This document shows, piece by piece, positions 1,783 to 52,212 of a stretch of 64,000 nucleotides of DNA; position 1 is the stretch's first letter, and every line of letters starts with the position of its first letter. The notes below the pieces were generated by a model. It saw only the letters and a list, made by a program, of their open reading frames with translations. It ran no database searches and was not told the origin of the DNA. Position numbers and translations under genes: made by a program. Source of the stretch: a virus; IMG/VR virus record IMGVR_UViG_3300025000_000086, positions 6,791 through 70,790 of that record; one strand, given 5' to 3'.

Positions 1783-4700
1783 TTGAAACAAATAATTAAA
1801 AGAAATGGTAGTATGGTAGATTTTGATACATATAAAATTACTATTGCGATTTTATCAGCATTAAATGAAACAAAAGAAGGAAATTATGAGACTGCTCAAA
1901 TATTATCAGATAAAGTAGTAATAAAAATTAATGGTAGAGATAAATTTAAAGTAGAAGAAATTCAAGATATTGTAGAAGAAGTTTTGATGACAGAAGGATT
2001 TCTTCAAACTGCAAAAAAATATATTATTTATCGTGAAGAAAGAGCAAAACAAAGAAATTTTGAATCTGATTTTATGAAACGTATCGCAAAAATTGATAAA
2101 GAAACTAGTAGAGATAATGCTAATATTGGTCATTCTACAGCAAGCAAAATGTATCAAATTGCTTCTGAAACAAGTAAGTATTATTATTTAAATAGATTAA
2201 TACCTAAACATCTTAGTAAATTACATAAAAATGGAGACATACATATTCACGATCTTGACTACTATTCTAAAAGCCCTAATTGCGTTTTACCTTTTGAATA
2301 TACTTCTATTAAAAATGAAAAAGGAGATATTAAAAATATTCAATTCTCATATTTTGATAATTTATTTGATGAATATACAACAATTAATAAAGAACAAACT
2401 GAAATAATCAATCCTATTGGATATAAAATTTTTGGAAGATATGGTTGGACGAATATTAATAGTATAATGAGAAGAAAATTAAAAGATAATGAACTAGTAT
2501 ATTGCATTAAAACAAGAAAAGGATTGCCTTTACATCTTACAGGAAATCACCAAATTCCTGTAATAAGAAACAACAAAGAAGAATTGATTTTTGTTAAAGA
2601 TGTATTAAAAGGCGATAAATTATTATATGAAAAAACAGATTTTGATGAACAATCTGAACTTCCAATATTAGATATGTTTATTGATAATATAAATGATCTT
2701 GAACATGGTATTACAATTAGGAACACTCATAAATTAATTCATTGGTTAAGATATAAATATGATGATTTTAATTTTAAATTTACAATTGGTAGAAAAGGAA
2801 GTTGTAAAGGTAATAATATGCTTAGTGGAGAAGAATATAAATTAATTTCTGAAAAATATCCTATCCCTTATGATATTAAAAAACAATTAACTGTTACAAC
2901 GACAAAAGGAATGAAAACCCTGCCAGCATATTTACCAATAACTTCTGAATTAGTAAGATTAGTAGGATATATTTTAGCTGAAGGACATTTAAGTATATCT
3001 TCTAGTGGAAGAAGTATTATGATTGCTAATATTAATAAAGATATTTTAAACGACATAGAACATTGTATTAATTACGTATTTCAAGACAAAGCAGGATATA
3101 GTTCTACTATTCAAAATTTAGAAGAAAGAAGAGAGAATGGTAAATATCTTAATGGTTCTGTATATATAGCATTTTTTAAATCTATTTTAAAAATTAAAAA
3201 TAATGCATCTGAAATGGATATTCCTGATTTTATTATGAATAGTGATATTAATTTAAAAGGTAACTTTATTCAATCATTAATGGATAGTGATGGTTATTAT
3301 GGTAGTAATAAAACTAATTATTGTACTTCATCTGAAAATTTTGCAAATAAATTAATTTTATTACTAAAAGATGTTAATATTGAATCAAGTTTTCATATTA
3401 GTGATAAAAAAGGAACAGATGTTTATTTAAATAATAAAATACAAGGGAAAAGAAACTATGATAATTATTATGTTAATGTTTATGATGTAAATAGTTTAAA
3501 TAATTTATTAAATATTGTTACACCAATTAAAAATACTGATATTATTCATGAGTATATAAATGTTACTACTAGTAATAATAGAGATCCGTTAGATGTGATA
3601 GACGTTTTAATTAAGAATAATTATAAAGATTTATATGTATATGATTTAGAAACAGACGAACATTGGTTTACTGTAAATAATTATATTGTTCATAATTGCT
3701 TATCAATTCCTTTAGAGCAATTATTAAGAACTGGTTATAATGGAGAATATGGATTTGTTAATTCACCAAAAAGAATTAAAAGTGCAATGGATTTAGCAGC
3801 AAATATTCTTCAAAGATGTTCAAATGATATTTTTGGTGGAACATTATTGCCTAATATTGATATGACAATTGAGAATTTGATAAATGATAAAATTATTGAA
3901 GAACCTACTGAAAGTGAATTAGAGCAAGCATGTCAAAGTTTACTTTATAATCTTGCTACCATGCCTACTAGAGCAGGAAATCAGATACCATTTTCTTCCA
4001 TGACATTTGGATTAGAAGAAGGTATTTGGGGTAGAAAAACATCTTTTGCAATGTTAAAACAATTTGAAAAAGGTATGGGTAAAGGCGAAACATTTATCTT
4101 CCCTAATATTGTGTTTAAAGTTAAAGAAGGAGTTAATTTTAATCCAGAAGATAAAAATTATGATTTATATAAATATGCAATAAAAGTTTCTTGTAATAGA
4201 ATGAATCCTACATTTGCATTTATGGATAATGCAGGTAATGAAGCATTTCCAGCAAAAGAAATTAATCCTATGGGATGCAGAAGCAGAATTGTTGCTAACC
4301 AACATGGAGATTCATGTTCAGAAAAGAGAGGAAATATTTTTCCAACAACTATTAATCTTCCTAAAATTGCTTTAAGAACAAAAGGTATGCATTATAATAA
4401 AGAATTAAAAGATTTTTGGAAAAAATTAAACAAGATGCTTGATGATGTTAAAGAATTATCATTACATAGATGGGGTATTCTTAAAAATCTTAAAGTAAAA
4501 GATATGCCTTTTGTATTTGGAGAGGATATATATTATAATTCAGGTGAATTATCTCCTGAAGATACCGTTGGAGAGTCATTAAAACATGGAACAATTGCTG
4601 TAGGATTTATTGGAATTGCAGAATGTGTAAAAGAATTAGTAGGTGTCCATCATGGAGAAAATGAAAAAGGATTAAAATTAGCATTAGAAATTAATAATAG

Positions 4701-5244
4701 ATTTAGACAATTTTGTGATGAAATGTGTGAAGAAACTAAATTAAATTGGTCGTGCTATGCCACTCCAGCAGAAAGTACCTGTAATAAAGTAATTAAAGAT
4801 AAAGAAGAATTTGGTATAATTAATGGAGTAACAGATAAGGAATATTACACAAACTCTTTCCATATTCCAGTATATTTTCCTATATCTATTGCCAGGAAAA
4901 TTACTATTGAAGGACAATTTCATAGATTTAATAATGCAGGACATATTAGTTATATTGAATTAACTGATGCTCCGATACATAATGTAGATGGTGTTGAACA
5001 TATTTTAAAACATATGAAAAATTCAGATGTTGGATATTGTGGTATTAATTATCCTAAAGATGAATGTTTAAATATTGAATGTAAAAATAGTGGCGTATTT
5101 GATGATTGCTGTCCTAAATGTGGAAATATAAATATTAGAAAAATTAGAAGAATATCTGGATATTTAGGATTTGAAGACAGAATTAATAGTAGTAAAAAGA
5201 AAGAAATAGATGAAAGATTGAAACACGATACGATAGGTAATTAA
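1783..5244 (+). CDS. nrdD: anaerobic (class III) ribonucleoside-triphosphate reductase with intein
   Basis: N-terminal ATP cone (IIKRNG), HIHDLDYY, MGCRS, YATPAES, C-terminal CxxC pairs and glycyl-radical motif RRISGYLG. Confidence 0.95.
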   Translation: MKQIIKRNGSMVDFDTYKITIAILSALNETKEGNYETAQILSDKVVIKINGRDKFKVEEIQDIVEEVLMTEGFLQTAKKYIIYREERAKQRNFESDFMKRIAKIDKETSRDNANIGHSTASKMYQIASETSKYYYLNRLIPKHLSKLHKNGDIHIHDLDYYSKSPNCVLPFEYTSIKNEKGDIKNIQFSYFDNLFDEYTTINKEQTEIINPIGYKIFGRYGWTNINSIMRRKLKDNELVYCIKTRKGLPLHLTGNHQIPVIRNNKEELIFVKDVLKGDKLLYEKTDFDEQSELPILDMFIDNINDLEHGITIRNTHKLIHWLRYKYDDFNFKFTIGRKGSCKGNNMLSGEEYKLISEKYPIPYDIKKQLTVTTTKGMKTLPAYLPITSELVRLVGYILAEGHLSISSSGRSIMIANINKDILNDIEHCINYVFQDKAGYSSTIQNLEERRENGKYLNGSVYIAFFKSILKIKNNASEMDIPDFIMNSDINLKGNFIQSLMDSDGYYGSNKTNYCTSSENFANKLILLLKDVNIESSFHISDKKGTDVYLNNKIQGKRNYDNYYVNVYDVNSLNNLLNIVTPIKNTDIIHEYINVTTSNNRDPLDVIDVLIKNNYKDLYVYDLETDEHWFTVNNYIVHNCLSIPLEQLLRTGYNGEYGFVNSPKRIKSAMDLAANILQRCSNDIFGGTLLPNIDMTIENLINDKIIEEPTESELEQACQSLLYNLATMPTRAGNQIPFSSMTFGLEEGIWGRKTSFAMLKQFEKGMGKGETFIFPNIVFKVKEGVNFNPEDKNYDLYKYAIKVSCNRMNPTFAFMDNAGNEAFPAKEINPMGCRSRIVANQHGDSCSEKRGNIFPTTINLPKIALRTKGMHYNKELKDFWKKLNKMLDDVKELSLHRWGILKNLKVKDMPFVFGEDIYYNSGELSPEDTVGESLKHGTIAVGFIGIAECVKELVGVHHGENEKGLKLALEINNRFRQFCDEMCEETKLNWSCYATPAESTCNKVIKDKEEFGIINGVTDKEYYTNSFHIPVYFPISIARKITIEGQFHRFNNAGHISYIELTDAPIHNVDGVEHILKHMKNSDVGYCGINYPKDECLNIECKNSGVFDDCCPKCGNINIRKIRRISGYLGFEDRINSSKKKEIDERLKHDTIGN
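2281..3696 (+). mobile_element. intein (472 aa) with LAGLIDADG homing endonuclease in nrdD
   Basis: Starts at Cys (CVLPFE), block B (LHLTGNH), LAGLIDADG-like LVGYILAEG and FIQSLMDSDG, block F/G VYDLET...NYIVHN|C; removal restores SPN-CLSIPL. Confidence 0.92.
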
Positions 5245-10868: not shown

Positions 10869-10925
10869 TAACTTATAAAAAGTTATAAAATATCATATTT
10901 TAAAGTAGAAAGGAGGTAATTAATT

Positions 10926-12074
10926 ATCATTAAATCTTTTAAAATTCAATTAGAACCTAATAACAAACAATCTACTATTCTTTTTCAATGTAGTGGTACT
11001 AGTAGGTGGGCATATAATTTTGCTCTATCTAAAATACAAGAACATTATAAAGAAACAGGTAAATTTTTAAATGATGGTGAGATACGGAAACAACTTACTC
11101 AATTAAAGAAAAATGATAAAAAATATAAATGGTTATATAAATATAGTAATAATATAACTAAGCAAGCGATAAAAGATGCTTGTAATGCTTATCAAAAGTT
11201 TTTCAAAGGATTAAGTAAGTTTCCTAAATTCAAGAGCAAAAAGAAATCTAAACCTAGTTTTTACAATGATACTTTTAAAATTAAGTTTACATCAAAACAT
11301 GTTCAATTAGAAAAAATAGGCAAAATAAGATTATCTGAAAAAGATAGAATACCACAAGGAAAATATATGAATCCTCGTTTAACTTATAATGGTTTAAATT
11401 GGTATTTATCTATTGCTGTTGAAATTAAGAATGAAATTAAACCTATTTTAACTAATGAATCAATTGGTATAGATGTTGGTGTAAAAGATTTGGCAATATT
11501 AAGTAATGGAATAGTATATAAGAACATAAATAAATCTAAAAAAGTAAAGAAATTAGAGAAAAAATTAAAAAGATTACAACGTAAATCTTCTAAAAAATAT
11601 GAGAAAAACAAACAAGGAAATAAAATTATTAAAACTAATAATATAAAGAAACTTGAAGTTAAAATTAGAAAAATACATAAAATGTTTACCAATATTCGTA
11701 CTGATTATATTCAAAAGACAACTACAGAGATAGTGAGAACCAAACCATCTCAAATAGTAATGGAAACATTAAATATAAAAGGTATGATGAAAAATAAACA
11801 TTTAGCAAAATACATGCAAAAACAAAAATTATTTGAATTTAAAACATTAATAAAATATAAAAGTAATAAATATGGTATTAATTTTATAGAAGTAGACAGA
11901 TGGTATCCTTCTTCTAAAACTTGTTCAGAATGTGGTTATGTAAAATCAAAATTAAGTTTAAAAGAAAGAGAATTTATTTGTGAAGATTGTGGAATTGTAA
12001 TTGATAGAGATTTAAATGCAGCAATTAATTTATCACGATATAGTGACAATACTGTGAGTTACACAGAATTTTAA
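10926..12074 (+). CDS. tnpB: RNA-guided endonuclease TnpB (IS607-type); full ORF starts at a non-canonical ATC
   Basis: Stop-free frame from xIKSFKIQLEPNNKQ (HTH) after GAAAGGAGG; RuvC GIDVG, IVMETL, DRDLNAAIN intact; CSEC/CEDC zinc finger. Confidence 0.92.
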   Translation: MIKSFKIQLEPNNKQSTILFQCSGTSRWAYNFALSKIQEHYKETGKFLNDGEIRKQLTQLKKNDKKYKWLYKYSNNITKQAIKDACNAYQKFFKGLSKFPKFKSKKKSKPSFYNDTFKIKFTSKHVQLEKIGKIRLSEKDRIPQGKYMNPRLTYNGLNWYLSIAVEIKNEIKPILTNESIGIDVGVKDLAILSNGIVYKNINKSKKVKKLEKKLKRLQRKSSKKYEKNKQGNKIIKTNNIKKLEVKIRKIHKMFTNIRTDYIQKTTTEIVRTKPSQIVMETLNIKGMMKNKHLAKYMQKQKLFEFKTLIKYKSNKYGINFIEVDRWYPSSKTCSECGYVKSKLSLKEREFICEDCGIVIDRDLNAAINLSRYSDNTVSYTEF

Positions 12075-12219
12075 GCCTTTGGACTACTAAATCAAACAGG
12101 AGTAGAAATATCGAAACTGGGTAGGATGAATAAGGAAATAAACATAAAAGTTAATAAATTGAAATAGATTTATAATTTTTTGTAAGTTTTATATAACGGA
12201 GTTATGATTGAATTAGGAA
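12040..12219 (+). ncRNA. putative TnpB omegaRNA scaffold plus guide
   Basis: Structured region overlapping the tnpB 3' end, ending ...TAAGTTTTATATAACGG (IS607-like right end at 12199), followed by flanking guide sequence. Confidence 0.6.
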
Positions 12220-17982: not shown

Positions 17983-18013
17983 TTAAAATAATTTCTAAGA
18001 AAGGAGGTTACAT

Positions 18014-18211
18014 ATGAACAAAAATAAAATTCATTTAGAAGCAGATGTACTAGAAAAATTTATAGAAATGAATAAATTAGAAGGTGCTAAAGAAGAGAGA
18101 AAAAGGATTGCTGAGAAATTAGTAGATGATGGTTATTGTTGTATTAAATTTCGTATTGCGTGTACTGATGATTGTGTAAATTGTATGGGAAATTATTTAG
18201 AATATGAGTAA
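18014..18211 (+). CDS. hypothetical protein
   Basis: AAGGAGG RBS. Confidence 0.6.
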   Translation: MNKNKIHLEADVLEKFIEMNKLEGAKEERKRIAEKLVDDGYCCIKFRIACTDDCVNCMGNYLEYE

Positions 18212-18431
18212 CGATAAAAAATATAACGATACATAAAGGAGATATATACTATGCCATTAGGTTTATTAATAGGTAAAGTAAATTGTCCAAAATGTGGAGA
18301 GTTAATTGTTAATCCTAAAGTTACTGATTTAGATGATAATGAAAAACCTATTATTATATGTAAATGCGGTAATTGGTTTGTGGTTGATTGTGAGAAACTA
18401 AGATATTAAAAAGGAGATACATTATATAAAT

Positions 18432-18650
18432 ATGAATAATTTAATATGTCCGTTTTGTTTGCAAGATATTTCAAATGGTAATCATGCTTGGAATTGTCCA
18501 ATGAATCCTGTGAATATTAATAATGGTGAATTTCAGTTGAATAATCATAAACATTTTAATAATTTGTTTACGTATCCTAAAAATCTAAATAAAATAATCG
18601 AAAATTCAAAAATTATAAAAATTGATATTCCACAAAGTGTTGATTTATAA
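18432..18650 (+). CDS. hypothetical protein (CPFC..H..NCP)
   Basis: AAGGAG RBS. Confidence 0.5.
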   Translation: MNNLICPFCLQDISNGNHAWNCPMNPVNINNGEFQLNNHKHFNNLFTYPKNLNKIIENSKIIKIDIPQSVDL

Positions 18651-18918
18651 GGGTTTGTGGGATCGGATTTCGTGATAAAAGTCATGTTTGGTTTGGTTAT
18701 GATCTATGATGATTTAAAAAAAGAAATTAAATTCAAATGATTTACTTAAAGAATTATTAGAACAGGCAGAAATAATTAATATTAAAGAATACGAAGATGA
18801 TATTGATTGTTTTCGTATTAATATAAGTGAACCTAATATTAATGATTTTATTTCTACATTAAAAGAAGAAATAAAAGATGAAATTGTAAAAATCCTTAAC
18901 AAAATATAAAAATAATTG

Positions 18919-18947
18919 TTGACAACAAACTAATAAAATGTTAAAAT
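18919..18947 (+). promoter_or_regulatory. sigmaA-type promoter for the large ncRNA
   Basis: TTGACA-17 bp-TAAAAT with TG extended -10. Confidence 0.75.
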
Positions 18948-18952
18948 AATAA

Positions 18953-19568
18953 TGCACAAAACAATAAAAAAAATTATTGGAAAGCACTATGGAGATTAGT
19001 TAGGGAGTGCAATAGGGATATTAAATTCAGATGAATTAGATTAATCCATTAATGGACTTAGATAAACAGGATAGTCTGTTAATATTCCTTTCTGCTGTTG
19101 TGGGTTTCAGTAGATAAAAATAATCCGAGAGTTACGGATAAGAAAATAACTCATATGTGAAGTTTGGTGGGTATATGCAATGAATTTATATAGTTATGAC
19201 AGAGTATCTGTATAATGGAAATTGTATATGGGATGATTAAGATAATACATGAAAACTCTGTTGTTTTACATCTTAGTCATGGTCTATAAAGGTGGGAATA
19301 TAGACAAAAATATTTTAAACCGTTGTTGTTTTAAAATGGGATTACATGTAAATGTAATGAGGTGTAGGATAACTTAAGTATCTGAGGGTGGAATTTCTTT
19401 TTCTCAACAATCAACTAACCATCAATCCCCAAAATTGATTGCATTGGTCAAGCAAAACAACAGGTATGACTAAAGCATACTTGTTGACAAGAAGACTAAT
19501 CCGTATTGGTTAGTACGGTTATATAAAGTAGTAGGTATTTTGGGTAGTTACTACTTTATATATTTCTT
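18953..19568 (+). ncRNA. large (~600 nt) highly structured ncRNA candidate
   Basis: ORF-free, G/U-enriched, many hairpins with G-U pairs, several pseudoknots, promoter and terminal hairpin. Confidence 0.75.
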
Positions 19569-19597
19569 TATATTAAATGAAAAAGGAGAAATATATT

Positions 19598-20005
19598 ATG
19601 AATACAAAATTGTTAAAAATAATAAAAATGTTACAAGATGAGGTACAATTACATATTGACACTATGAAGAAAATTGAACAAGAATTAGTTAATCAAGAAG
19701 AAAATATAAAATATACTAATTGGGATATTTCAACAAATAATATTATTGCTGATAGTATCACTATTAAAGAAAATGGTGAAATATTATTAAGAATAGATAA
19801 AGATGGTATTACAACATCAAGCAAAGTAAAGGAATTAAAAGAAGAAGATGAAACAGATAAATTTATTAATTTTCTTTTAGATTTAGAAAAAAGAATTACA
19901 AAATTAGAAAATAATAAATTAGATAATGATATAAAAAATATTAGCAATAAAGTTGTAGAAAATATTTTTAATAGTTTAAAAAGAATGGATAAAAATATTA
20001 AATAA
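19598..20005 (+). CDS. hypothetical coiled-coil protein
   Basis: AAGGAG RBS before MNTKLL. Confidence 0.65.
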   Translation: MNTKLLKIIKMLQDEVQLHIDTMKKIEQELVNQEENIKYTNWDISTNNIIADSITIKENGEILLRIDKDGITTSSKVKELKEEDETDKFINFLLDLEKRITKLENNKLDNDIKNISNKVVENIFNSLKRMDKNIK

Positions 20006-20064
20006 ATAGTATATTTAGGGTATTGTTAATATGATACCCTAAATATCAACATTAAGGAGATTAT

Positions 20065-20292
20065 ATGATAACTTACAATAAAAATGGCGAACCAGAATTA
20101 AATGAATATGTTAGAAGTATTAGAGATTTAGAATATATTATGGGTAATTTAAATGATGCTATTATGGAATTAAATAATGATGCAAAAGAAATTACAAATA
20201 AGTTTAATGAATTAAAACAATATACTGAGGGATTAGAGGAATTACTTGATAGACATGAGATTGATTATGAATATAAAAATATTGATATATAA
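20065..20292 (+). CDS. hypothetical coiled-coil protein
   Basis: AAGGAG RBS. Confidence 0.65.
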   Translation: MITYNKNGEPELNEYVRSIRDLEYIMGNLNDAIMELNNDAKEITNKFNELKQYTEGLEELLDRHEIDYEYKNIDI

Positions 20293-20319
20293 TAAAATAA
20301 TAAATAAAGGAGAATACTT

Positions 20320-21075
20320 ATGATTAAAGTAACATTATTAAATCCAGAACAAATAAAAAACATATTTAAAGAATGGGGATCTTTCGCCTGTGAATGTTAC
20401 GCAACACCTCAAAAATATGCAGAAAAAGTAGGCAATAGTTGTTTTGAATCAGGACATTACAGTGGAAGTAGAACTGAATATATTAAATTCAGAATTGAAG
20501 GTATCGATCGTGGGGTTAGTGAGCAAATCATGCGACATGAAATAGGAGTAAGACAAAATCCTATAGATGAACATACATATGATGAAAATCCTAATAATAT
20601 AATCAAAAATCTTAAATCATTTAGATATGTAGATATGAATGATTTTGATTATACTACACCTACTACTATTGATAAAATACCAGAAGCAAAAGAAGAATAT
20701 GATAGAATCAATAATGAAATAAATAAAAGTAGAATTAAAATTAAAGATATTTTAATTAATAATAAAGTAAAAGAAAAACAAGCAGTTGAAGATGCTAATT
20801 ATATTTTACCTAGAGCAACAAATACTACTTTAACTATTGGTTTTACAATTGAGGCATTAATTCACTATATGCATAAAAGATTATGTGTTAGAGCACAAGA
20901 TTTACATAGAAAAGTTGCAATGATGATGAAGGAAGAAGTGATTAAGGTATTGCCACAATTAGAAAATAGGTTAGTTCCTCAATGCGAGTATCTTTTGTGG
21001 TGTCCAGAAGGTGATATGTCTTGTGGGATGAAACCTACTAGAGATAAATTGATTAGTGATTTATATGAAAAATAA
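20320..21075 (+). CDS. thyX: FAD-dependent thymidylate synthase
   Basis: SGHYS..E, FRIEGIDRGVSEQIMRH...KSFRY, DANYILP, KRLCVRAQ, PQC...CPEG. Confidence 0.88.
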   Translation: MIKVTLLNPEQIKNIFKEWGSFACECYATPQKYAEKVGNSCFESGHYSGSRTEYIKFRIEGIDRGVSEQIMRHEIGVRQNPIDEHTYDENPNNIIKNLKSFRYVDMNDFDYTTPTTIDKIPEAKEEYDRINNEINKSRIKIKDILINNKVKEKQAVEDANYILPRATNTTLTIGFTIEALIHYMHKRLCVRAQDLHRKVAMMMKEEVIKVLPQLENRLVPQCEYLLWCPEGDMSCGMKPTRDKLISDLYEK

Positions 21076-22659: not shown

Positions 22660-22713
22660 TTTATTCTTATGAGTGTGTGCATAATGAGATGTTTGCCTAC
22701 TCATAAGAATAAA
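22660..22713. other. candidate attP site
   Basis: Perfect 15-bp inverted repeat TTTATTCTTATGAGT/ACTCATAAGAATAAA with 24-bp spacer, overlapping the recombinase 3' end. Confidence 0.7.
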
Positions 22714-24292
22714 AAGATGGAGTAATACGAATTTCAAATAATGTTTTATTTATCCTTTCAAATTCAACATTTTTAATAACCGATTTTAATAAAATATTTT
22801 TCTCTGTTTTATCATTGCAATTTTCATATGCTTCTAAAACAGTTTCTACTTTATCTTGCCATTCAAGAAACTTCTGTTCAAAATTATTATTTACATTTTC
22901 ATTAGAAATAAGTAATTTTAACTTATCTAATTCATTATTAAGTTCGTTTGTACGTTCTTTATACATAATATCATCTATAAGTCCATCTTCCCATTTTTCA
23001 TAAGCAAATTTAAGTTTACGTTTTAATTCTAATTCCTTCTTATGCATTACATCATTTATATCTACTGAATTTTCTTTTTTATTATTAACAAAATTATTAA
23101 AATCATCTTCTAATATTTTTTTTGCTTGTTTAATTCCCATGTTTTTTAATTTTTTCAATAATAATAATAATTTTCCTTCAATTTTTCTATACATGGCATA
23201 ACTACATCCTGGTTTAGTACACCATAATACTTCTTGAAAATAAGTTTTTCTAGTTCCATCTTTTTTATCATAATGTGTTCTAGTAGTCTGTTTAATCATA
23301 GTTTTTTTACATTTACTACAAATAACTAATCCTGCTAATTCACAGGGAGAAAAATCCAATTTATTATGCGGTGCAGTACCTCTATTATTAAATTTTTTCT
23401 GTGCTAATTCCCAAGTTTCTTCATCAATAATAGATTCATGTGCATGTTCAACAATTATATGTTCATCTAAAGGTCGATCTATTACTATTGATTTATTATT
23501 TTTTATTACACGTTTTCTTCTATAATACATGACTGTACCATTATATACAGGATTAGAAAGAATTCTTTTAACAGTAGATGGTTCCCATGTTATACCATTT
23601 TTTGGAGTATGAATACCAATTCTAGTAAGATATGTTGCTATTGCTCTAAAAGAAACTTCTTTGCCATCAATTCCATTTACATAAAGAATAAATATTAATC
23701 TAACAATATCTGCTAATTCTTCAATTGGTTCTAATTTAGAAGTTTGTGAATTTAATTTGTATGCGAAGGGAAGGTTTCCAACGATCCATTTACCTTCAGT
23801 GGCAAGATTGTATTTTGCACTTGTCATTCTTTGTCGAATTAACTCGAATTCTTCACGGCTCATGAACATCTCAAACCTAATCTGTCTAACATCAGAAGAA
23901 TTTGAAGGATTATAAATTTTATAAGGTGTAATGATATAAATATTTTTAGATACAACCAAATCATAAATTACACCCATATCACTATAATTACCTCTACCTA
24001 ATCTAGATAATTCACGAACAGCAATACAATTATATTTGTCTAATTTTAAATCTTCTAATACTTGTTTAAAAACTGGTCTAGTTTCTATTTTATCTCCAGA
24101 ACCAATTTCAGAAACTTGGTCATAAGGAATATCTAAATCATCTAATACTTTTGTCATTATTTTTTGCTGTGTAGCTAAAGTATCTTCACCTGTACGTTTT
24201 TCCTTTTCAATATCTTGCCTAGAACGTCTAAGATAGTTGATTATTTTATAGATATTTTGTTGCGGAGAAGAATAAGAATAACTTTTAGACAT
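22697..24292 (-). CDS. large serine recombinase (SprA-like integrase)
   Basis: YLRRSR, SG...RP, ELSRLGR catalytic domain; recombinase domain; CSKC...WCTKPGC zinc ribbon; coiled coil. Confidence 0.93.
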   Translation of the reverse strand: MSKSYSYSSPQQNIYKIINYLRRSRQDIEKEKRTGEDTLATQQKIMTKVLDDLDIPYDQVSEIGSGDKIETRPVFKQVLEDLKLDKYNCIAVRELSRLGRGNYSDMGVIYDLVVSKNIYIITPYKIYNPSNSSDVRQIRFEMFMSREEFELIRQRMTSAKYNLATEGKWIVGNLPFAYKLNSQTSKLEPIEELADIVRLIFILYVNGIDGKEVSFRAIATYLTRIGIHTPKNGITWEPSTVKRILSNPVYNGTVMYYRRKRVIKNNKSIVIDRPLDEHIIVEHAHESIIDEETWELAQKKFNNRGTAPHNKLDFSPCELAGLVICSKCKKTMIKQTTRTHYDKKDGTRKTYFQEVLWCTKPGCSYAMYRKIEGKLLLLLKKLKNMGIKQAKKILEDDFNNFVNNKKENSVDINDVMHKKELELKRKLKFAYEKWEDGLIDDIMYKERTNELNNELDKLKLLISNENVNNNFEQKFLEWQDKVETVLEAYENCNDKTEKNILLKSVIKNVEFERINKTLFEIRITPSFYSYE

Positions 24293-24502
24293 ATAATACT
24301 CCTTAATTGAATAATTTAAATGTAATACTATTTAAACAATACTATTAATATTATTCTACATGGAGTATGAATTATCCTTTTTAAATAATTTTACAAAAAT
24401 CAATAAAACAGGTATATTTTTATAGCAATATGATATAATTATGAATAAGATAGTTAAAAGTATTTAAATTGATTAAATTAATTAGTAAGGAGTGAATAAT
24501 GA

Positions 24503-25661
24503 TATGAGTGTTGTTGAGAAGGAGATAGGGAATATGGATACAATGAAAAATACAGAATGGGAACTTCCTTTACATCCATTATACAAAAATGGTGAGATAG
24601 TTCGTTACACAGGAAATGTATCGCTTGGCATTTTAAGTTCAATGTATCGTGATGGTCAAATTTATTATAATCCTTTAAAACAGAGGGGAACAAAAGTAGG
24701 GAAAGATGGAAAAATTGAACCATTTGTTATTAAGTCTAAAGTTAAAGAAATAACTACTAATATATTGTCAAATAAATTTTTTGGTAATTTAATAACTTTA
24801 AATATTAGAAAAGAAGAAAATCCTGTCTTGCATTATGATGAAAATTTAAATATTCTTCATGGAAAAAATAGATTCGAATTAATTGATGGTTGCCATCGCT
24901 TAACTTCTGGTTTGTTTATTTTAAATAAATGGGAAAAACTTAAAGAAAAAGATAAGCATTTACTAATAAACCCTTTTGAATATGAAATGATTGTAAGTGT
25001 TGAAATTTTGGATGATCAAAATTCATCTGCCCTTTTTAACGAGTACAATAGTAAGCAAACAAAAGTAAATTCCAATATTACTAGCTTTTTAGATGTTTAC
25101 GATTTATCTAATACTGTGGCAAGAAGATTAATAAATGAATCTGAATTAAGAGACAAAATTAAAATTGGTGCTGGTTCATTAAGAGTTAAAGGTGATAATA
25201 ACTTAACAAATTTTGCAAAAATATACGAAGGTATTAAGAGTAATTTTAGAGATAAAATATTAACTAAAAATGAAGCAGATAAAGTTGCAGATTACTTAAT
25301 TTTATATTGGAATGAATTAGTAAATTTACTCCCTGGATACTTTGGTGATATTTCAAATCGTCAAGAAATGAGAGATAAAGATTTAACAATTCAACAAATA
25401 ACTTTTAATGCGTATTTTGCACTTGCTAGAAAATTATATGGATTGGAAAATTGGCAGGAGAAATTAGCAAAAATAAAAGAACCAGTACAAGTGGATGGTT
25501 TTAGAGGTTATATATTTTCTAAGGATAATCCTTATTGGTCTGAGTGCTTCAGAATCAAAAATGGTATTCCAATGGTCGTTAACAGTAGTAGCACGATTCG
25601 TGCGGTTACTAAACATGTTGTTAGTTATATTGTTCCAGAAGACAAGGTTAAAAGTGAATAG
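24503..25661 (+). CDS. DGQHR/DndB-like ParB-superfamily protein
   Basis: QRG motif, LIDGCHRL, LFNEYN. Confidence 0.7.
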
Positions 25662-25711: not shown

Positions 25712-26911
25712 TTAATTTTTCAATGCCTTATCCAATATTTCTTCTATCTTATCAAAATCCCAATACCAAATAATTAATAAATTTATATTATGATTCTGTG
25801 CGTAAATACATTTACGATTATCATGCTCTAACTGTTTTTCAAAATCTTTAATTGTTTTATGTATACCTCTAGTAAATTTCTCATGCTGTCCACCATGATA
25901 CTCAATAAGAAGATTATATTTTGGAATATAATGGTCATAAGAAAGATTTTTATTGCCTAGTCCTATAAGACCATCAAATTCTTTTTGAGGTATAAAATAA
26001 TTTTTATTATATTTATTATTATCTTCTAATTTATCAAATTCTTCTTGTGACATTTTAACCCAATTGTTTTCAATTAATACTTCATTAATTTTATTCTCAC
26101 CTTTAGATTTATTACATTCTGGGCAACCAGTTTTTAATTTACCATTTCTACTTTTAATTCGTGCGTACCAAGAATAATTACATTCTTTACACTTCCACCA
26201 AGCATATTGACTACTCCCTGGAGTATAATCTTCAGGATTTTTATCATTTTTATTGTAATCCCATTCCTTACATAGTTTTGGATTATCTTTTAATAAATTA
26301 TTTTCTTTTGTGGCATATCTACCGGAACAATAAGGACAACCATTACCATCAGTTCTATGACTTATGTTTGCATACCATTCATGTCCTTTTTCACAAATCC
26401 ACCATGCATATTGAGGAGTCCCACAAGTAATATCATAAGGTGTAAGTTCACCATTTAAAATAGGATGCCACTCTTTTGCTAATTCTGGATTTTTGGTTGC
26501 AAGACAATTAGAGATTCCTACTTGATGTCCTGAACAAAATCCACATCCATAACCAGCATGAATATAGTTCCAATTTGCTTCAAATTCTTCACCGCAACCA
26601 TCTTTTAAGCATTTCCATATTAAATTATCTTTAGCGTCAATATACTTTTCACTAACTAATTTAAAAGGTTTATTATTTAATTTACACCATAAATTTATAT
26701 TTTGTATGGTATAAGGATTAGATTTATGAAATCTTTTAGGTATACATTTATTTAATAAATTACTAAAAGTAATCATATAATAATACCCTTCATTGTCTCT
26801 TAAAATCAATTTTTCTTTATTATTTTTATATTCTTTACTAATTAACTCATATTCTAATTTATTAACATATTCTTTTACTTCTTCATAAATCCATATTTTT
26901 CTTTTACCCAT
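25712..26911 (-). CDS. free-standing putative homing endonuclease (zinc-ribbon repeats plus Vsr-like PD-(D/E)XK domain)
   Basis: NPELAKEWHP...WWICEKGHEW...GCPYC repeats; SKGE...LSYD...LIEYHGGQH...HD..K. Confidence 0.8.
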   Translation of the reverse strand: MGKRKIWIYEEVKEYVNKLEYELISKEYKNNKEKLILRDNEGYYYMITFSNLLNKCIPKRFHKSNPYTIQNINLWCKLNNKPFKLVSEKYIDAKDNLIWKCLKDGCGEEFEANWNYIHAGYGCGFCSGHQVGISNCLATKNPELAKEWHPILNGELTPYDITCGTPQYAWWICEKGHEWYANISHRTDGNGCPYCSGRYATKENNLLKDNPKLCKEWDYNKNDKNPEDYTPGSSQYAWWKCKECNYSWYARIKSRNGKLKTGCPECNKSKGENKINEVLIENNWVKMSQEEFDKLEDNNKYNKNYFIPQKEFDGLIGLGNKNLSYDHYIPKYNLLIEYHGGQHEKFTRGIHKTIKDFEKQLEHDNRKCIYAQNHNINLLIIWYWDFDKIEEILDKALKN

Positions 26912-27181
26912 AATTATTCTCACCAAATCCTTCCGTCGATTTTTAAATTTTGCAATCTTTCAATTGCCAGCTCCGATTACCCAATAAAAAATAAAAAGAA
27001 GAGAGGCATCGGAATTTACCTCTCTTATCAACCACATTGGCCTATGTGATTTATCTTTTTCCACACAAAAACAAAAAAGAGCAGAAATTAATCCACTCTC
27101 AAAAAGTTAACCTACATTTTTAAATTTATAAGTATAATGTAGGTTAAATATTATATTAATAATTCAAATATTACGTTCTAA

Positions 27182-29701: not shown

Positions 29702-31243
29702 CTAAAATACCTCACTTTCAGGTATTTTATTTTTTATTTTTATATATTCATCATAATACATCCAAACTAATTTTGTACCATCTTGTAATTTAGTTGATTG
29801 TGTTATATGTCTACAACAATTTGATATATTTGAAGCGTAAATATTGTATGTATTAGAAGCATCTACTATACAATTAAAAATTTCTTTAGTTGTTAAACAT
29901 ATTATTTTCCTTTTATTTTTATTATTATATTCTTCTTTTGGATCATAATCACACCAATTTAATTTAACACCTTGCTTAAGATACCTTATAATTGTACTTC
30001 TACTTATATTAATTTTATTAATTATTTTTGAAACATTATTAATTCCACTATTCCATAAATCACAAACAACTTTTACTAAACTATTACAAGCAAATTCATG
30101 GCATTTTAACCAATCGACATCTTCTTTTTTGAAATTTAATAATTTAGGCAATTCACTATTCATAATACTATTTTTAATCCATTCCATATTTGATTCTCTA
30201 CAATCTAAAACTATGTAATTTTCAATATTATTTTCTTTTGCTAATTGTTCTTTTTGTTTATCATTTTCTTGATTTTCTTTTAAAGATTTTGATCTAGCCC
30301 AAGACCCAGTAATACGATCTTCGTAATGTTGTAAACCATGTGTTTCTACTATGCATTGAAAATTATCAATATAAAAATCATATTTATAATTACTACACCA
30401 TTTAAAAGTAGTTTTAGATAATTGTGCTTGAAAATTATTATTAAGTAATTGTTCTAATACATTAAACATAAATTTTTCTGGATAACTAACACCATCAGAA
30501 CACTTTTGGCAAGAAAGTCCATTCTTTATTAAAGTAGGAATTAAATATTCTCTTTCATGACCACATATAGGACATTTCATAAGAATTAATTTACTTGACC
30601 CTAATGAGTATTTATATGCATCTTCTTTATTTACTAGATATTCAGTCAAATGTGGATGTGTTATTGCTATAGTATTACATTGACTACATTTTATACTTCC
30701 TTTTTGACCACCAACAAAACAATGAATATCACGTAATTCACTTTTATGTTCAGGATGATCTAAACACTTAAACCAATATCCTTTTTTATTAAGACCATGA
30801 GAACTACAAGTCACATCACTAGGAGTTAATTTATTACCATTCTCGTCAATATTTAATTCATAATCCCATCTTTCCATAATTTTATTTGCTTCATTTTTAG
30901 GAAGATTTTCATAACACCAATCATAAAAAGATATCCATTTTTTATTTCCATTTGCGGCACATTTTGCACAATAATAACTTCCATCTTCTTTAACACATTT
31001 TAAATAATCTATCCATCTTACTTGTGGTAATATTGTTCCGCAAGCATTACATCGAACAATAACATTTGCATGACTTTTTGGACTTATATCTTCTATTTTT
31101 ATAATTATTTTTGTTCCTTGTTTAATTTTATTTTTTCTTCCTTGATTATCAGTCCATTTAGGAATTATATACCTTTTTTCTTCATAATAATTTGCATTAC
31201 TACCACTTATTACAACTTCAACTTCTTTGCTAATTAATCCCAT
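29702..31243 (-). CDS. free-standing putative homing endonuclease (Zn ribbons, Vsr-like nuclease, C-terminal NUMOD1-like)
   Basis: SYPEKF...YDFYI...IVETHGLQH...D..K; IICLTTKEIF..I..AS. Confidence 0.78.
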   Translation of the reverse strand: MGLISKEVEVVISGSNANYYEEKRYIIPKWTDNQGRKNKIKQGTKIIIKIEDISPKSHANVIVRCNACGTILPQVRWIDYLKCVKEDGSYYCAKCAANGNKKWISFYDWCYENLPKNEANKIMERWDYELNIDENGNKLTPSDVTCSSHGLNKKGYWFKCLDHPEHKSELRDIHCFVGGQKGSIKCSQCNTIAITHPHLTEYLVNKEDAYKYSLGSSKLILMKCPICGHEREYLIPTLIKNGLSCQKCSDGVSYPEKFMFNVLEQLLNNNFQAQLSKTTFKWCSNYKYDFYIDNFQCIVETHGLQHYEDRITGSWARSKSLKENQENDKQKEQLAKENNIENYIVLDCRESNMEWIKNSIMNSELPKLLNFKKEDVDWLKCHEFACNSLVKVVCDLWNSGINNVSKIINKINISRSTIIRYLKQGVKLNWCDYDPKEEYNNKNKRKIICLTTKEIFNCIVDASNTYNIYASNISNCCRHITQSTKLQDGTKLVWMYYDEYIKIKNKIPESEVF

Positions 31244-50616: not shown

Positions 50617-52212
50617 TTAGTTAAAAATGTATTTATTTAATATTTCTTCAATATTATCAAAATCCCAATACCATATTTCAAGTAAATTTATATTATTATT
50701 CCATGCATAAATACATTTTCTTTGATCGTGTTCTAATTGTTTTTTAAATTGTTCTTCTGATTCATGGAATCCTGGTATATATTTTTCATGCTGTTCACCT
50801 TGATATTCAATCAATAAATTTAATTTGGGTATGTAAAAATCATAAGATAATAAACCATTTCCCAAACCTACTAAACCATTAAATTTCATTTGAGGAATAA
50901 AATAATTCTTATTATATTTATCTTCATCAATTAAATTATCAAAATCTTCTTGTGATATTTTAATCCAATTTTTATTAATTAATATTCTATCTATTTCTTT
51001 TTCACCTTTACTTTTACAGCATTCAGGACAACCAAATCCACTATTTCTACTATAAATATATGCTTCCCATTCATGCTCACATTCTTTACATACCCACCAA
51101 GCGTATTTGCCACTGTTGGGACAAAACTCTTCAGGTCTTTTTTCATTCTTCTTATAATCCCATTCTTCACATAATTCAGGATTATTAACTAGTAAATTAT
51201 AGTCTTTTGAAGGTAATTGTCCTGCACAATAAGGGCAACCACAACCAGAATTTCTACTATTAATTGTCGCAGGCCACTCATGTCCTTTATCACATTGCCA
51301 CCAAATATCTTTACTACCACTTACAGTAACATCAAAAGGAGTCAAATCACCGTTCAACGTAGGATGCCACTGTTTTGCAAGTTCAGGGTTTTTAGTTGCA
51401 AGACAATTGGATAAGGCAATTTGTTTACCAACACAAACTCCACAACCTTGATTATTTGTTATTATTTGATCTATACTTGCTCTAAATTCTTCTCCACAAT
51501 TTTCTTTTAAACATTTCCATTTTAATTTCTTTTTACTTCCTTCATATGTATCACTTAATAATTCAAACGGTTTATTATTTAATTTACACCATAGTTTTAT
51601 ATTTTGTATTGTATAAGGATTAGATTTATTGAATTTATCTGGTGTAGTTTTTTGTTGTAAATCATTCCATGTTATAAAATAATAATAATCTTCATTATCT
51701 TTTAATATAAGTTTTGAAGCAGAATTAACATATTCATCACTTATTAATTCATAATTTAAATTACGTATAAATTTTTTAACTTGTTCATATGTAAGTTTTG
51801 AATTTTCTATACGTTTAATATTTTGACAAATAGGACACTTTGTACCACTTAAAAAACTATGTGGTGTAACAGGCCATTCATGATCGCATTTATTATGTTT
51901 TATCAATATATTTGTTTTATTATTTATATATTCACCAATAACTTCATATTCATCACCAACTAATTGATAAACTTCTTCTTTAAATTGTTTTGTATCTTTT
52001 TTATTATTGCCAGAACACTTAGTACATCTAATATTTTTATTTAAAAAACTATCAGGATAAATACTCCATTCATAATTACTACAACTTTCATTATTATGCC
52101 TAATCTTAACTTTTATTCTAGCATTAATATATTCGTCTAATATAGTATATTCATCCCCAACTAAATTATATACTGCTTGTAAAAATTCATCGTTAGTTCT
52201 TTTTCTTGGCAT
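50617..52212 (-). CDS. free-standing putative homing endonuclease, close paralog of 25712-26911
   Basis: Same Zn-ribbon repeats and SKGE...LSYD...LIEYQGEQH nuclease; additional N-terminal repeats. Confidence 0.8.
   Translation of the reverse strand: MPRKRTNDEFLQAVYNLVGDEYTILDEYINARIKVKIRHNNESCSNYEWSIYPDSFLNKNIRCTKCSGNNKKDTKQFKEEVYQLVGDEYEVIGEYINNKTNILIKHNKCDHEWPVTPHSFLSGTKCPICQNIKRIENSKLTYEQVKKFIRNLNYELISDEYVNSASKLILKDNEDYYYFITWNDLQQKTTPDKFNKSNPYTIQNIKLWCKLNNKPFELLSDTYEGSKKKLKWKCLKENCGEEFRASIDQIITNNQGCGVCVGKQIALSNCLATKNPELAKQWHPTLNGDLTPFDVTVSGSKDIWWQCDKGHEWPATINSRNSGCGCPYCAGQLPSKDYNLLVNNPELCEEWDYKKNEKRPEEFCPNSGKYAWWVCKECEHEWEAYIYSRNSGFGCPECCKSKGEKEIDRILINKNWIKISQEDFDNLIDEDKYNKNYFIPQMKFNGLVGLGNGLLSYDFYIPKLNLLIEYQGEQHEKYIPGFHESEEQFKKQLEHDQRKCIYAWNNNINLLEIWYWDFDNIEEILNKYIFN

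What the first reader, a model, noticed from the sequence alone, without database searches (positions are those of the whole stretch)
18919..19568. ~600-nt promoter-driven, multi-pseudoknot ncRNA in the early arm
Seen in sequence: a consensus sigmaA promoter, then ~620 nt with no ORF in an otherwise gene-dense arm, ending in a long hairpin (19521-19561). Pairings I can trace: 19014-24/19079-89 enclosing three small hairpins; 19091-97/19108-14; an H-type pseudoknot (ATCCG 19123/CGGAT 19135, loop GAGTTA with TAACTC 19147); 19196-205/19255-64; 19267-75/19358-66 enclosing three hairpins; a kissing match TTAGTCAT 19273 with ATGACTAA 19466; long-range 5' closure AGTGCAAT 19006/ATTGCATT 19438 and TTAGTT 18996/AACTAA 19413; and a 3' pseudoknot (ACTAA/TTAGT with CCGTA/TACGG). 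G-U wobbles favour a + strand RNA. Established: large ornate phage RNAs (ROOL, GOLLD) of this size occur in Bacillota phages. Inference: this is such an RNA or a new class; I cannot assign a family.
Basis: partly seen in the sequence, partly recalled or inferred. Interest (0 to 1): 0.82.

Follow-up and report, generated by a model that had tools for sequence, protein, structure and literature searches.

The report
New modular structured RNA in phage
A roughly 615-base stretch of a large phage genome encodes not a protein but a folded RNA with its own promoter and terminator, built from interchangeable domains and matching no known RNA family; what it does is still unknown.

Summary
The feature is real. 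Window 18919-19571 (+) holds a near-consensus sigma-70/sigmaA promoter with an extended -10. About 615 nt follow that are closed in all six frames. They end in a 15-bp hairpin (19520-19562) followed by a U-rich tract.

Nine distinct homologues were found, all in IMG/VR or metagenome contigs. None was found in GenBank phages or in the GTDB genome motif scan. No Rfam 15 family matches, and direct ROOL and GOLLD models also miss.

The 3' domain (19415-19571) is kept in 9 of 9. It shows compensatory changes at 10 of 40 pairs, a count reached by 0 of 500 shuffles. Its hairpin loops are invariant while the stems vary. G-U pairs fix the + strand.

The 5' and middle domains are swapped, duplicated or lost, giving 7 architectures in 9 sequences. 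Covariation there is weak. Related phages carry an empty site or a small ORF in the same slot.

The first ORF downstream falls into 8 unrelated groups in 9 loci. That argues for a stand-alone accessory RNA gene rather than a gene-specific leader.

Expression and function are untested.

The parts
18919..18947 (+). Promoter: -35 TTGACA, 17-nt spacer, extended -10 TGtTAAAAT. The start site is inferred near 18954.
   Evidence: 11 of 12 consensus positions, TG present. Conserved in 8 of 8 homologues with a 5' flank. A sister promoter lies at 1429, upstream of nrdD.
18954..19571 (+). Predicted RNA body, about 615 nt. The ends are inferred, not mapped.
   Evidence: no open frame. (raised GC). (9 distinct homologues).
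18979..19124 (+). 5' domain D1. It has hairpin 18984-88/19006-10 with a 17-nt loop holding GAUUAGU (18994-19000), a variable arm closed by 19014-24/19079-89, and hairpin 19091-97/19108-14 with loop UUGUGGGUUU.
   Evidence: 12 pairs, 100% paired, 2 compensatory, reached by 12 of 500 shuffles. Arm stem checked by eye. Absent or degenerate in L016.
19122..19309 (+). Middle module M (long form). Candidate pseudoknot 19125-27/19135-37 with loop 19129-34 pairing 19147-52. H2 19172-81/19221-30. Loop-loop 19199-205/19255-61. H3 19233-43/19270-80. H4 19282-88/19299-305 with loop AAGGUGGGAA, followed by an A-rich linker.
   Evidence: 39 pairs, 98.5% paired, only 2 compensatory, reached by 22 of 500 shuffles. 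Module types and copy number.
19310..19414 (+). Module C. Hairpin 19313-20/19328-36. Hairpin 19341-47/19352-58 capped by a GUAA tetraloop. Weak hairpin 19367-71/19379-83. Pyrimidine-rich linker.
   Evidence: Present in 4 of 9 (window, L027, L014, L035). The two compensatory changes in the GUAA hairpin were read by eye; MAFFT misaligned this part.
19415..19571 (+). 3' core D3. P1 19421-26/19434-39 with loop CCCCAAA. P3 19445-49/19494-98. Variable P2 19458-68/19476-86. P4 19501-05/19514-18. Terminal hairpin 19520-34/19548-62 with the invariant loop GGUAUUUUGGGUA, then a U-rich tract 19563-71.
   Evidence: 40 pairs, 97.2% paired, 10 compensatory, reached by 0 of 500 shuffles; slid controls give 0-2. 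P2 is present in 9 of 9 with at least 6 different stem sequences. Model R1 scores 139-172 bits on all 9.
19428..19544 (+). Candidate tertiary or quaternary pairs, all invariant: CCCAAAA 19428-34 with UUUUGGG 19538-44; (C/U)UAACCA 19415-21 with UGGUUAG 19507-13. A third links D1 to D3: GAUUAGU 18994-19000 with ACUAAUC 19495-501.
   Evidence: Complementarity read. There is no covariation, so these are proposals only. The loops are invariant in 9 of 9 while the neighbouring stems vary.

Best explanation
This is a stand-alone gene for a large, highly structured non-coding RNA carried as an accessory cassette in the early region of a small clade of AT-rich large siphophages.

Host sigma-70/sigmaA-type RNA polymerase starts at the consensus promoter, at about 18954. 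The 3' end is set by the long hairpin 19520-62 plus the U tract. That signal is probably leaky, because the next ORF begins 15-37 nt further on (GTG 19577 or ATG 19598) with no room for a promoter of its own.

The RNA folds on the + strand into a conserved 3' core and zero to three exchangeable upstream domains.

The mechanism I commit to is inferred, with about 0.45 probability within this statement. The RNA acts in trans as a folded particle. Its invariant hairpin loops make loop-loop contacts and bind a host or phage partner early in infection, as a scaffold or decoy. These loops are the C-rich P1 loop, the U4G3 loop of the terminal hairpin, the D1 loop, and the GUGGG loops that end D1 and M.

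Shown: the promoter and terminator signals and their conservation, the absence of coding potential, homologues, strand, helices with compensatory changes, modular shuffling, and presence or absence among relatives.

Inferred: transcription itself, the ends, every tertiary contact, action in trans, and any partner.
For: - Promoter: with conservation.
- Non-coding: all frames closed in 9 of 9 homologues.
- Homologues: 9 distinct sequences.
- D3 structure: 10 of 40 pairs compensatory, reached by 0 of 500 shuffles, 97.2% paired against 31-43% when slid.
- P2: a hairpin in 9 of 9, with at least 6 different stems.
- Strand: G-U pairs are present in 9 of 9 at columns 33-84 and 93-100. These would be A-C on the other strand.
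- Loops: the terminal-hairpin loop and the whole of P1 are invariant while the terminal stem covaries at 7 positions. That is unexpected for a mere terminator.
- Cassette boundaries: homology begins at the promoter and ends about 12 nt after the hairpin.
- Downstream genes: the first downstream ORF forms 8 unrelated groups in 9 loci.
- Empty sites: L043 has the same promoter with no RNA. G001 has a 63-aa ORF there instead, and the window's downstream ORF is 76% identical to G001's.
- Absence in relatives: model R1 finds nothing in 5 of 5 further related records, including one complete 161.8-kb genome.
- No consistently placed antiterminator partner. The best alternative duplexes are -6.7 to -10.3 kcal/mol at varying positions, against -14.9 to -26.5 for the hairpin.
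Against: - No transcript evidence. No RNA run holding the stretch was listed, so promoter use and both ends are predictions.
- All 9 homologues come from a narrow group of related contigs, so relatedness inflates shuffle statistics (caveat stated by the tool).
- Covariation in the middle module is weak: 2 of 39 pairs, reached by 22 of 500 shuffles. In D1 it is modest: 2 of 12 pairs, reached by 12 of 500.
- Every proposed pseudoknot or kissing pair is invariant and so untestable here. In a 617-nt AT-rich RNA, 7-nt complementarities are expected by chance.
- The repeated GUGGG motif is only mildly enriched: 3 observed against 0.78 expected, reached by 18 of 500 shuffles with no multiple-test correction. 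Multivalent display is therefore not established.
- Downstream ORFs have no promoter of their own, so the RNA is also physically the leader of any read-through mRNA.
- The window's simple terminator scan did not call the hairpin, because it has too few G-C pairs.
- No partner gene co-occurs with the RNA.
Confidence: 0.55

Rival explanations
1. It is a cis-acting leader of the early operon. The structured RNA and its hairpin set how much transcription or translation reaches the genes behind it, by attenuation, processive antitermination in the manner of put RNA, or a ligand- or factor-sensing switch.
For: The element lies directly between an early promoter and ORFs that start 15-45 nt after the hairpin, with no intervening promoter. 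The architecture is promoter, structured RNA, terminator-like hairpin, ribosome-binding site. GACUA(A) in D3 has three possible partners, which could in principle be a switch.
Against: The first downstream ORF forms 8 unrelated groups in 9 loci. No conserved antiterminator pairing was found. The terminal loop is invariant, which termination does not require. Size and module copy number vary from 0 to 3. Relatives express the same downstream gene without the element. No riboswitch or leader family in Rfam matches.
Confidence: 0.2
2. It is an RNA-only homo-oligomer of the ROOL/GOLLD kind. The invariant complementary loops (CCCAAAA with UUUUGGG, UAACCA with UGGUUA) pair between molecules and build a multimeric particle.
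For: The RNA is phage-encoded and about 600 nt long. [quoted passage not shown] That paper also reports that kissing loops first read as tertiary contacts proved to be intermolecular. The two loop pairs here are invariant in 9 of 9 while the stems vary.
Against: There is no sequence or structure match to ROOL or GOLLD. No tRNA genes lie nearby (0 in 64 kb). The same loops can pair within one molecule. There is no covariation and no experiment. Distribution is very narrow.
Confidence: 0.15
3. It is a ribozyme, or a processed array whose modules are released as separate small RNAs.
For: Large size, conserved junction nucleotides, a conserved GNRA (GUAA) tetraloop hairpin, and A/U-rich single-stranded linkers between modules.
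Against: No ribozyme family matches. No substrate context such as an intron or a repeat junction. The modules are dispensable.
Confidence: 0.05
4. It is a DNA-level element, such as an origin, a packaging site or a recombination site, whose inverted repeats only look like RNA structure.
For: Both strands fold better than shuffles (z -3.41 and -3.50). The slot is a hotspot for gene exchange.
Against: Conserved G-U pairs at covarying helices work only on the + strand as RNA. A conserved promoter and a U tract frame the element. P2 keeps its shape with unrelated sequences.
Confidence: 0.05

Closest known systems
GOLLD RNA (Rfam RF02032)
   Same: Phage-encoded, several hundred nucleotides long, with many helices and loop-loop contacts. 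It has a conserved 3' region and a variable 5' region, and its function is unknown (passages of PMC12286853).
   Different: No model match at E <= 10. No adjacent tRNA genes. This RNA is driven by an early-type promoter, whereas GOLLD is reported to rise at lysis. Distribution is far narrower: 9 sequences. Oligomeric state is unknown.
ROOL RNA (Rfam RF03087)
   Same: About the same size (the model has 574 positions). Found in phages and prophages, predicted to hold multiple pseudoknots, with no known protein partner.
   Different: No model match at E <= 10. No tRNA island. The domain make-up here varies in copy number, which the passages I read do not report for ROOL.
phi29-type packaging RNA (pRNA); comparison recalled from memory, not from a call
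   Same: A phage RNA made from an early promoter, whose hairpin loops pair between molecules to form a ring. One candidate pair here (AACC with GGUU) has the same letters as the loop pair I recall for pRNA.
   Different: No Rfam match of any kind. This is a large tape-measure siphophage, not a phi29-like podovirus. It is more than three times longer. The resemblance is probably coincidental.
HK022 put RNA and other leader antiterminators; recalled
   Same: Sits immediately downstream of an early phage promoter and upstream of a terminator.
   Different: About ten times larger, modular, dispensable in relatives, and with invariant loops. No test of antitermination was possible.
Short candidate structured RNAs from IMG/VR (PMC10690425; passages read)
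   Same: Mined from the same kind of IMG/VR intergenic regions. That pipeline required at least 3 regions, and this RNA has 3 IMG/VR contigs.
   Different: Those motifs are 29-151 nt long.

Membership tests
ROOL (RF03087) | Match to the family covariance model | tested here: not met
   No hit at E <= 10 in the whole 70.8-kb record or in the all-family scans. The control genomes also gave no hit, so that call has no positive control.
ROOL (RF03087) | Lies in a phage or prophage, often beside tRNA islands | tested here: inconclusive
   Phage context is met. There are 0 tRNA genes in the 64-kb window.
ROOL / GOLLD | Forms an RNA-only multimeric cage | not testable with these tools
   Needs native gels or cryo-EM. 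Here there are only invariant complementary loops.
GOLLD (RF02032) | Match to the family covariance model | tested here: not met
   No hit at E <= 10 (where controls rang only below the cut-off).
GOLLD (RF02032) | Conserved 3' region with a variable 5' region | tested here: met
   D3 is present in 9 of 9, and the upstream domains give 7 architectures in 9 sequences. This is a resemblance, not homology.
Any Rfam 15 family (by recall this includes OLE, raiA, HEARO, pRNA, T-box, riboswitches, group I/II introns and small ribozymes) | Covariance-model match | tested here: not met
   4227 models were scanned. Only LPR69 appeared, at 16.8 bits and E 1.2 on the - strand. There were 0 hits at E <= 1 in 7 homologous loci totalling 59,794 bases.
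Riboswitch or gene-specific cis leader | Recurring association with one downstream gene family | tested here: not met
   The first downstream ORF forms 8 unrelated groups in 9 loci by blastp at E <= 1e-3.
Riboswitch or attenuator | Conserved alternative pairing that competes with the terminator | tested here: not met
   The best partners of the terminator strands fall at different places and are much weaker than the hairpin. This was a simple duplex search, not an exhaustive one.
Type III toxin-antitoxin RNA | Near-identical short tandem repeats, then a terminator, then a conserved endoribonuclease toxin gene | tested here: not met
   The modules are 125-190 nt long and diverged. Downstream ORFs are unrelated. 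The window's downstream ORF has no Pfam hit and also occurs in G001 without the RNA.
Intrinsic-terminator-ended bacterial or phage RNA gene | Promoter, non-coding body, and a stem-loop followed by a U tract | tested here: met
   The hairpin is -14.9 to -26.5 kcal/mol in 9 of 9 and is followed by UAUUUUU in most, and by UUUCUUU in the window.

The most novel reading that the evidence does not exclude
This is a third, unrelated class of phage-encoded RNA that assembles by itself through intermolecular kissing loops into a multimeric particle. Unlike ROOL and GOLLD, it varies in valency or size because whole domains are gained and lost between closely related phages. It would act early in infection to capture a host RNA or protein.
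Probability: 0.15. Interest if true: 0.9.

Novelty: new variant of a known kind. Interest (0 to 1): 0.7.

Why it matters
Bacterial and phage non-coding RNAs longer than about 500 nt with conserved complex folds are rare. Nearly all that have been understood turned out to be ribozymes or large assemblies.

This one adds a class with no detectable relation to ROOL, GOLLD or OLE. It has two features that make it experimentally attractive:
- A compact, strongly supported core of about 140 nt. It also survives in a natural 250-nt minimal variant.
- Natural variants with zero to three added domains, which amount to a ready-made deletion series.

Because the RNA sits behind an early promoter in a hotspot where relatives carry other small genes, it may belong to the host-takeover or counter-defence repertoire. 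In that area RNA effectors are barely explored.

The limits are a very narrow known distribution, no cultured host and no expression data.

Tried and rejected
- GenBank phages, blastn with 11-nt words: no match.
- Exact-motif scans of IMG/VR with four conserved motifs returned only the same two contigs.
- A 16-nt module motif gave 18 further loci. Blastn flagged four (L048, L054, L055, L064). I read L048 and L054 and both are chance matches inside coding sequence. L055 matches only the stretch after the hairpin. L064 matches only L016's upstream flank. Neither of those two was read.
- GTDB genome contigs: 0 matches to a 24-nt D3 motif.
- Of the 26 metagenome stretches that hold the 19-nt P1 hairpin, 8 are homologues and 18 are chance.
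- Relatives found through ThyX (5 loci) and through the upstream zinc-finger-like gene (6 loci) added no new RNA copy. Model R1 found nothing in 5 further records.
- Expression: no RNA holder was listed. The three runs shown held next to none of the sampled words.
- Hidden coding or a recoded stop: rejected. The 42-aa ORF (73 aa in L014) is truncated or lacks a start in L013, L019 and L036 (read).
- CsrA-type GGA sponge: 13 GGA against roughly 8 expected by my own rough composition estimate, and GUGGG is only mildly enriched. Not supported.
- G-quadruplex: the G tracts are not conserved between module types.
- PyrR, T-box and pRNA resemblances were recalled from memory. None is backed by an Rfam hit.
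- Antisense targets of the loops elsewhere in the window: only scattered 8-mers.
- RF01998, which I recalled wrongly as GOLLD, is group-II-D1D4-1. It also gave no hit.
- Text searches of the paper library turned up no description of such an RNA. A word search cannot establish sequence novelty, and the supplements of PMC10690425 could not be read.
Full report
SETTING

The window is bases 6791-70790 of a 70.8-kb IMG/VR virus record that CheckV rates 39% complete. It is very AT-rich, with GC of 0.19-0.31 in 300-nt windows.

The + strand of the first 22 kb carries many small ORFs and nucleotide-metabolism genes:
- an NrdD with an intein and a LAGLIDADG domain
- an aspartate carbamoyltransferase
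- ThyX
- a dNMP kinase
- a 5'-nucleotidase

The - strand from about 27 kb carries tail genes, a tape-measure protein and several HNH homing endonucleases. The 981-aa tail protein is most like those of 160-170-kb Bacillus siphophages, at 36-38% identity over 65% of its length. 'Large phage of a Bacillota-like host' is therefore plausible but not proven.

WHAT IS AT 18919-19571

A promoter-like site matches the consensus at 11 of 12 positions: TTGACA, 17 nt, TAAAAT, with TG before the -10. It is the best of 11 such sites in 18000-20500. The number of sites is below the shuffle mean (23.7 +/- 5.7), so a count proves nothing. What counts is conservation. The hexamers and the TG are kept in 8 of 8 homologues that retain a 5' flank, while the spacer and flanks change. 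In L014 almost everything but the hexamers differs. A sister promoter sits at 1429, upstream of nrdD.

Downstream, the longest ATG ORF is 42 aa. Each of the six frames holds 11-22 stops; all three stop types occur in five frames and the sixth has TAA and TGA only, so no single stop reassignment opens a frame. Every frame is likewise closed in 9 of 9 homologues. The ORF-free gap 18651-19576 is the largest genuine one in the window. GC rises to 0.27-0.32.

The stretch ends in a hairpin at 19520-19562 (-18.0 kcal/mol), followed by UUUCUUUAU. In the homologues the hairpin is -14.9 to -26.5 kcal/mol and is mostly followed by UAUUUUU. The window's simple terminator scan missed it, because the stem has too few G-C pairs.

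Minimum free energy is better than shuffles on both strands: z is -3.41 and -3.50, with 0 of 20 shuffles reaching it on each. That test does not choose a strand.

HOMOLOGUES

GenBank phages gave nothing. A relative found through ThyX held a 67%-identical copy. Motif scans of IMG/VR found one more contig.

One metagenome scan with the 19-nt P1 hairpin returned 26 stretches. Eight are homologous by blastn and the rest are chance. After removing duplicates there are 9 distinct sequences:
- the window
- L027 (96% identical to the window)
- L014 (79%)
- L013 (67%)
- L019, L036 and L029
- L035 (cut at its 5' end by the contig edge)
- L016

A covariance model of the 3' domain scores 139-172 bits on all of them. 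Nothing else among the 37 sources searched scores above 24 bits. A 24-nt invariant motif has 0 matches in 185,579 GTDB species genomes. The window's record holds one copy.

NO KNOWN FAMILY

- Rfam 15 at gathering thresholds finds only RAGATH-18 elsewhere in the window.
- At E <= 10 over 18700-19800 the sole hit is a 16.8-bit match to LPR69 on the opposite strand.
- Seven homologous loci give 0 hits at E <= 1.
- ROOL (RF03087) and GOLLD (RF02032), run on their own over the whole record, give nothing at E <= 10.
- ARAGORN finds no tRNA or tmRNA in the window.

ARCHITECTURE

The sequences share four kinds of block.

D1 (18979-19124) has three parts:
- a hairpin GCACU/AGUGC with a 17-nt purine-rich loop
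- a variable arm closed by 19014-24/19079-89
- a hairpin 19091-97/19108-14 with loop UUGUGGGUUU, followed by AUAAAAAU

M (19122-19309) has a small hairpin whose loop can pair just downstream, then helices H2, H3 and H4. H4 again carries a GUGGG loop and is followed by AAAAAU.

M occurs in a long form and a short form. The long form has extensions on H2 and H3. The short form lacks both. The two extensions carry complementary 7-mers, 19199-205 and 19255-61. These are present in 6 of 6 long modules, with one A-C mismatch in L036, and both are absent from 4 of 4 short modules.

C (19310-19414) is present in 4 of 9. It includes a hairpin capped by a conserved GUAA tetraloop.

D3 (19415-19571) is present in 9 of 9.

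The combinations differ from sequence to sequence:
- D1-M-C-D3 in the window, L027 and L014. The window and L027 carry a long P2; L014 has a short one.
- D1-M(long)-M(short)-D3 in L013 and L019.
- D1-M(long)-D3 in L036.
- D1-M(short)-D3 in L029.
- M(short)-C(extended)-D3 in L035, whose 5' end is missing.
- A degenerate 5' remnant plus D3 in L016.

That makes 7 architectures in 9 sequences.

EVIDENCE FOR STRUCTURE

D3:
- 40 pairs, 97.2% of cells paired.
- 10 pairs show compensatory changes, against 4.8 +/- 1.2 in shuffles. No shuffle of 500 reached 10.
- Slid controls give 0-2 compensatory pairs and 31-43% pairing.
- The terminal hairpin contributes 7 covarying pairs, CCGUA/UACGG contributes 2 (to CUGUG/CACAG in 3 of 9), and UGGUC/GACUA contributes 1 (in L016).

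P2, which MAFFT misaligned, folds as a hairpin in 9 of 9 with at least 6 different stem sequences.

D1's two hairpins are 100% paired, with 2 compensatory pairs, reached by 12 of 500 shuffles. The arm-closing stem is kept in all five arm variants with a matched base-pair deletion and an A-U to G-C change. I read this by eye.

The long M module is 98.5% paired but shows only 2 compensatory pairs, reached by 22 of 500 shuffles. The short M set has 1. Support for M therefore rests mainly on conservation, on comparison between module types, and on the joint presence or absence of the two extensions.

All homologues are related to one another. As the tool warns, that can inflate shuffle-based measures. 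The pair-count measure is the more robust of them.

STRAND

G-U pairs occur in 9 of 9 sequences at covariation-supported helices (columns 33-84 and 93-100). They would be A-C mismatches on the other strand. The promoter and the U tract agree with this.

INVARIANT LOOPS

P1 (stem and loop) and the 13-nt loop of the terminal hairpin are identical in 9 of 9, while the terminal stem changes at 7 positions. A hairpin that only terminated transcription would have no need for a fixed loop.

Three complementarities link conserved regions:
- CCCAAAA (19428-34) with UUUUGGG (19538-44).
- (C/U)UAACCA (19415-21) with UGGUUAG (19507-13), the loop of P4.
- GAUUAGU in the D1 loop (18994-19000) with ACUAAUC (19495-501).

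All three are invariant, apart from one C/U position that gives either G-C or G-U. They cannot be tested by covariation, and 7-nt matches are expected by chance in an RNA of this size and composition. I list them as candidates only.

Supported or allowed:
- 19014-24/19079-89
- 19091-97/19108-14
- 19196-205/19255-64
- CCGTA/TACGG
- the terminal hairpin
- the small pseudoknot at 19123-52 (allowed, but invariant)

Not supported:
- 19267-75/19358-66, which competes with covarying H3
- TTAGTCAT/ATGACTAA, whose partner lies in a P2 extension unique to the window and L027
- AGTGCAAT/ATTGCATT, not kept in the homologues
- TTAGTT/AACTAA, not kept in the homologues
- ACTAA/TTAGT, which is invariant and competes with P3

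GENOMIC BEHAVIOUR

Homology starts at the promoter and ends about 12 nt after the hairpin.

Upstream, a small zinc-finger-like gene is syntenic in most loci. The gene next to the promoter differs between loci.

Downstream, the first ORF starts 15-45 nt after the hairpin. Among the 9 loci only L016 and L029 share a homologous first ORF, which gives 8 unrelated groups.

Several relatives lack the RNA:
- The closest relative by ThyX (92% identity, G001) has the promoter, a 63-aa hydrophobic ORF in place of the RNA, and then a 76%-identical copy of the window's downstream ORF.
- L043 has the same promoter followed by about 170 nt and a gene, with no RNA.
- Five more related records, one of them complete at 161.8 kb, lack D3.

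The RNA is therefore an accessory cassette in a variable early slot.

HOW IT MOST LIKELY WORKS

What is shown is the anatomy above. My inference is a stand-alone RNA gene transcribed early. Its product folds into a conserved 3' core decorated with optional domains. It acts as a folded particle through its invariant loops, binding a host or phage partner or other copies of itself.

Against a gene-specific leader or riboswitch:
- the downstream genes are unrelated
- the loop is invariant
- module number varies
- there is no conserved antiterminator

In favour of some cis effect, the downstream ORFs have no promoter of their own. Read-through must therefore occur, and the element necessarily forms their 5' leader.

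I could not find a repeated loop motif strong enough to claim a multivalent sponge. GUGGG occurs 3 times against 0.78 expected, a count reached by 18 of 500 shuffles.

COMPARISON WITH WHAT IS KNOWN

The closest analogues are GOLLD and ROOL. Both are phage-borne, about 600-800 nt long and pseudoknotted, with unknown function. GOLLD also has a conserved 3' region and a variable 5' region (passages of PMC12286853).

Membership fails on the only testable defining feature, the covariance model. The tRNA association is absent as well.

A 2023 survey of IMG/VR intergenic regions reported motifs of 29-151 nt (passages of PMC10690425). Its supplements are closed, so a fragment of this RNA might be listed there.

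Word searches of the paper library found no description of such an RNA, but they cannot test sequence identity.

LIMITS

- No RNA run holding the stretch was listed.
- The host is unknown.
- The family is small and comes from a narrow set of contigs.

Noticed in passing
window 10920-12137: A 384-codon open frame (10920-12074) matches TnpB/IS605 OrfB domains: HTH_OrfB_IS605, OrfB_IS605 and Cas12f1-like TNB. It has no ATG, GTG or TTG before 11367, so the ORF list shows only 235 aa. The single Rfam hit in the window, RAGATH-18 (63 bits), lies immediately after its stop at 12076-12137. The placement suggests that this RNA motif is the guide or right-end RNA of the TnpB-like gene.
   Followed up: partly
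window 18715-18909: An open stretch of about 62 codons ends at 18909, just before the promoter, and has no canonical start codon. At the same position G001 has a 67-aa ORF that looks unrelated by eye. It may be a decayed gene or one with an unusual start.
   Followed up: partly
window 1783-5244: The anaerobic ribonucleotide reductase NrdD is interrupted by an intein with a LAGLIDADG endonuclease domain. It is preceded by a promoter almost identical to the one that drives the RNA (1429).
   Followed up: no
window 25712-26926, 29702-31243, 50617-52212, 61080-61988: At least four HNH-type or other homing-endonuclease genes are scattered through the structural arm.
   Followed up: no
window 22697-25661: A large serine recombinase on the - strand sits beside a DndB-like / GmrSD_N-like gene on the + strand, at the switch between the two transcription arms. 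The recombinase suggests a temperate lifestyle.
   Followed up: no
L043 4514-4740: A related phage has the same early promoter followed by a second promoter-like site and a leader of about 170 nt, but no RNA cassette. This is an 'empty site'.
   Followed up: yes
L016 225-469: A natural minimal variant of about 250 nt keeps the promoter, a decayed trace of D1, an extra copy of the GACUAAUCC motif and a complete 3' core. It also carries the only compensatory change in helix P3.
   Followed up: partly
window 19121-19137 and 19497-19518: The pentamer AATCC occurs 4 times in the RNA against 0.44 expected, a count reached by 0 of 500 shuffles. Two of the copies open similar hairpins (AAUCCG ... CGG) whose loops are complementary to a nearby single strand. 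This hints that M's first hairpin and D3's P4 are paralogous pseudoknot units.
   Followed up: no
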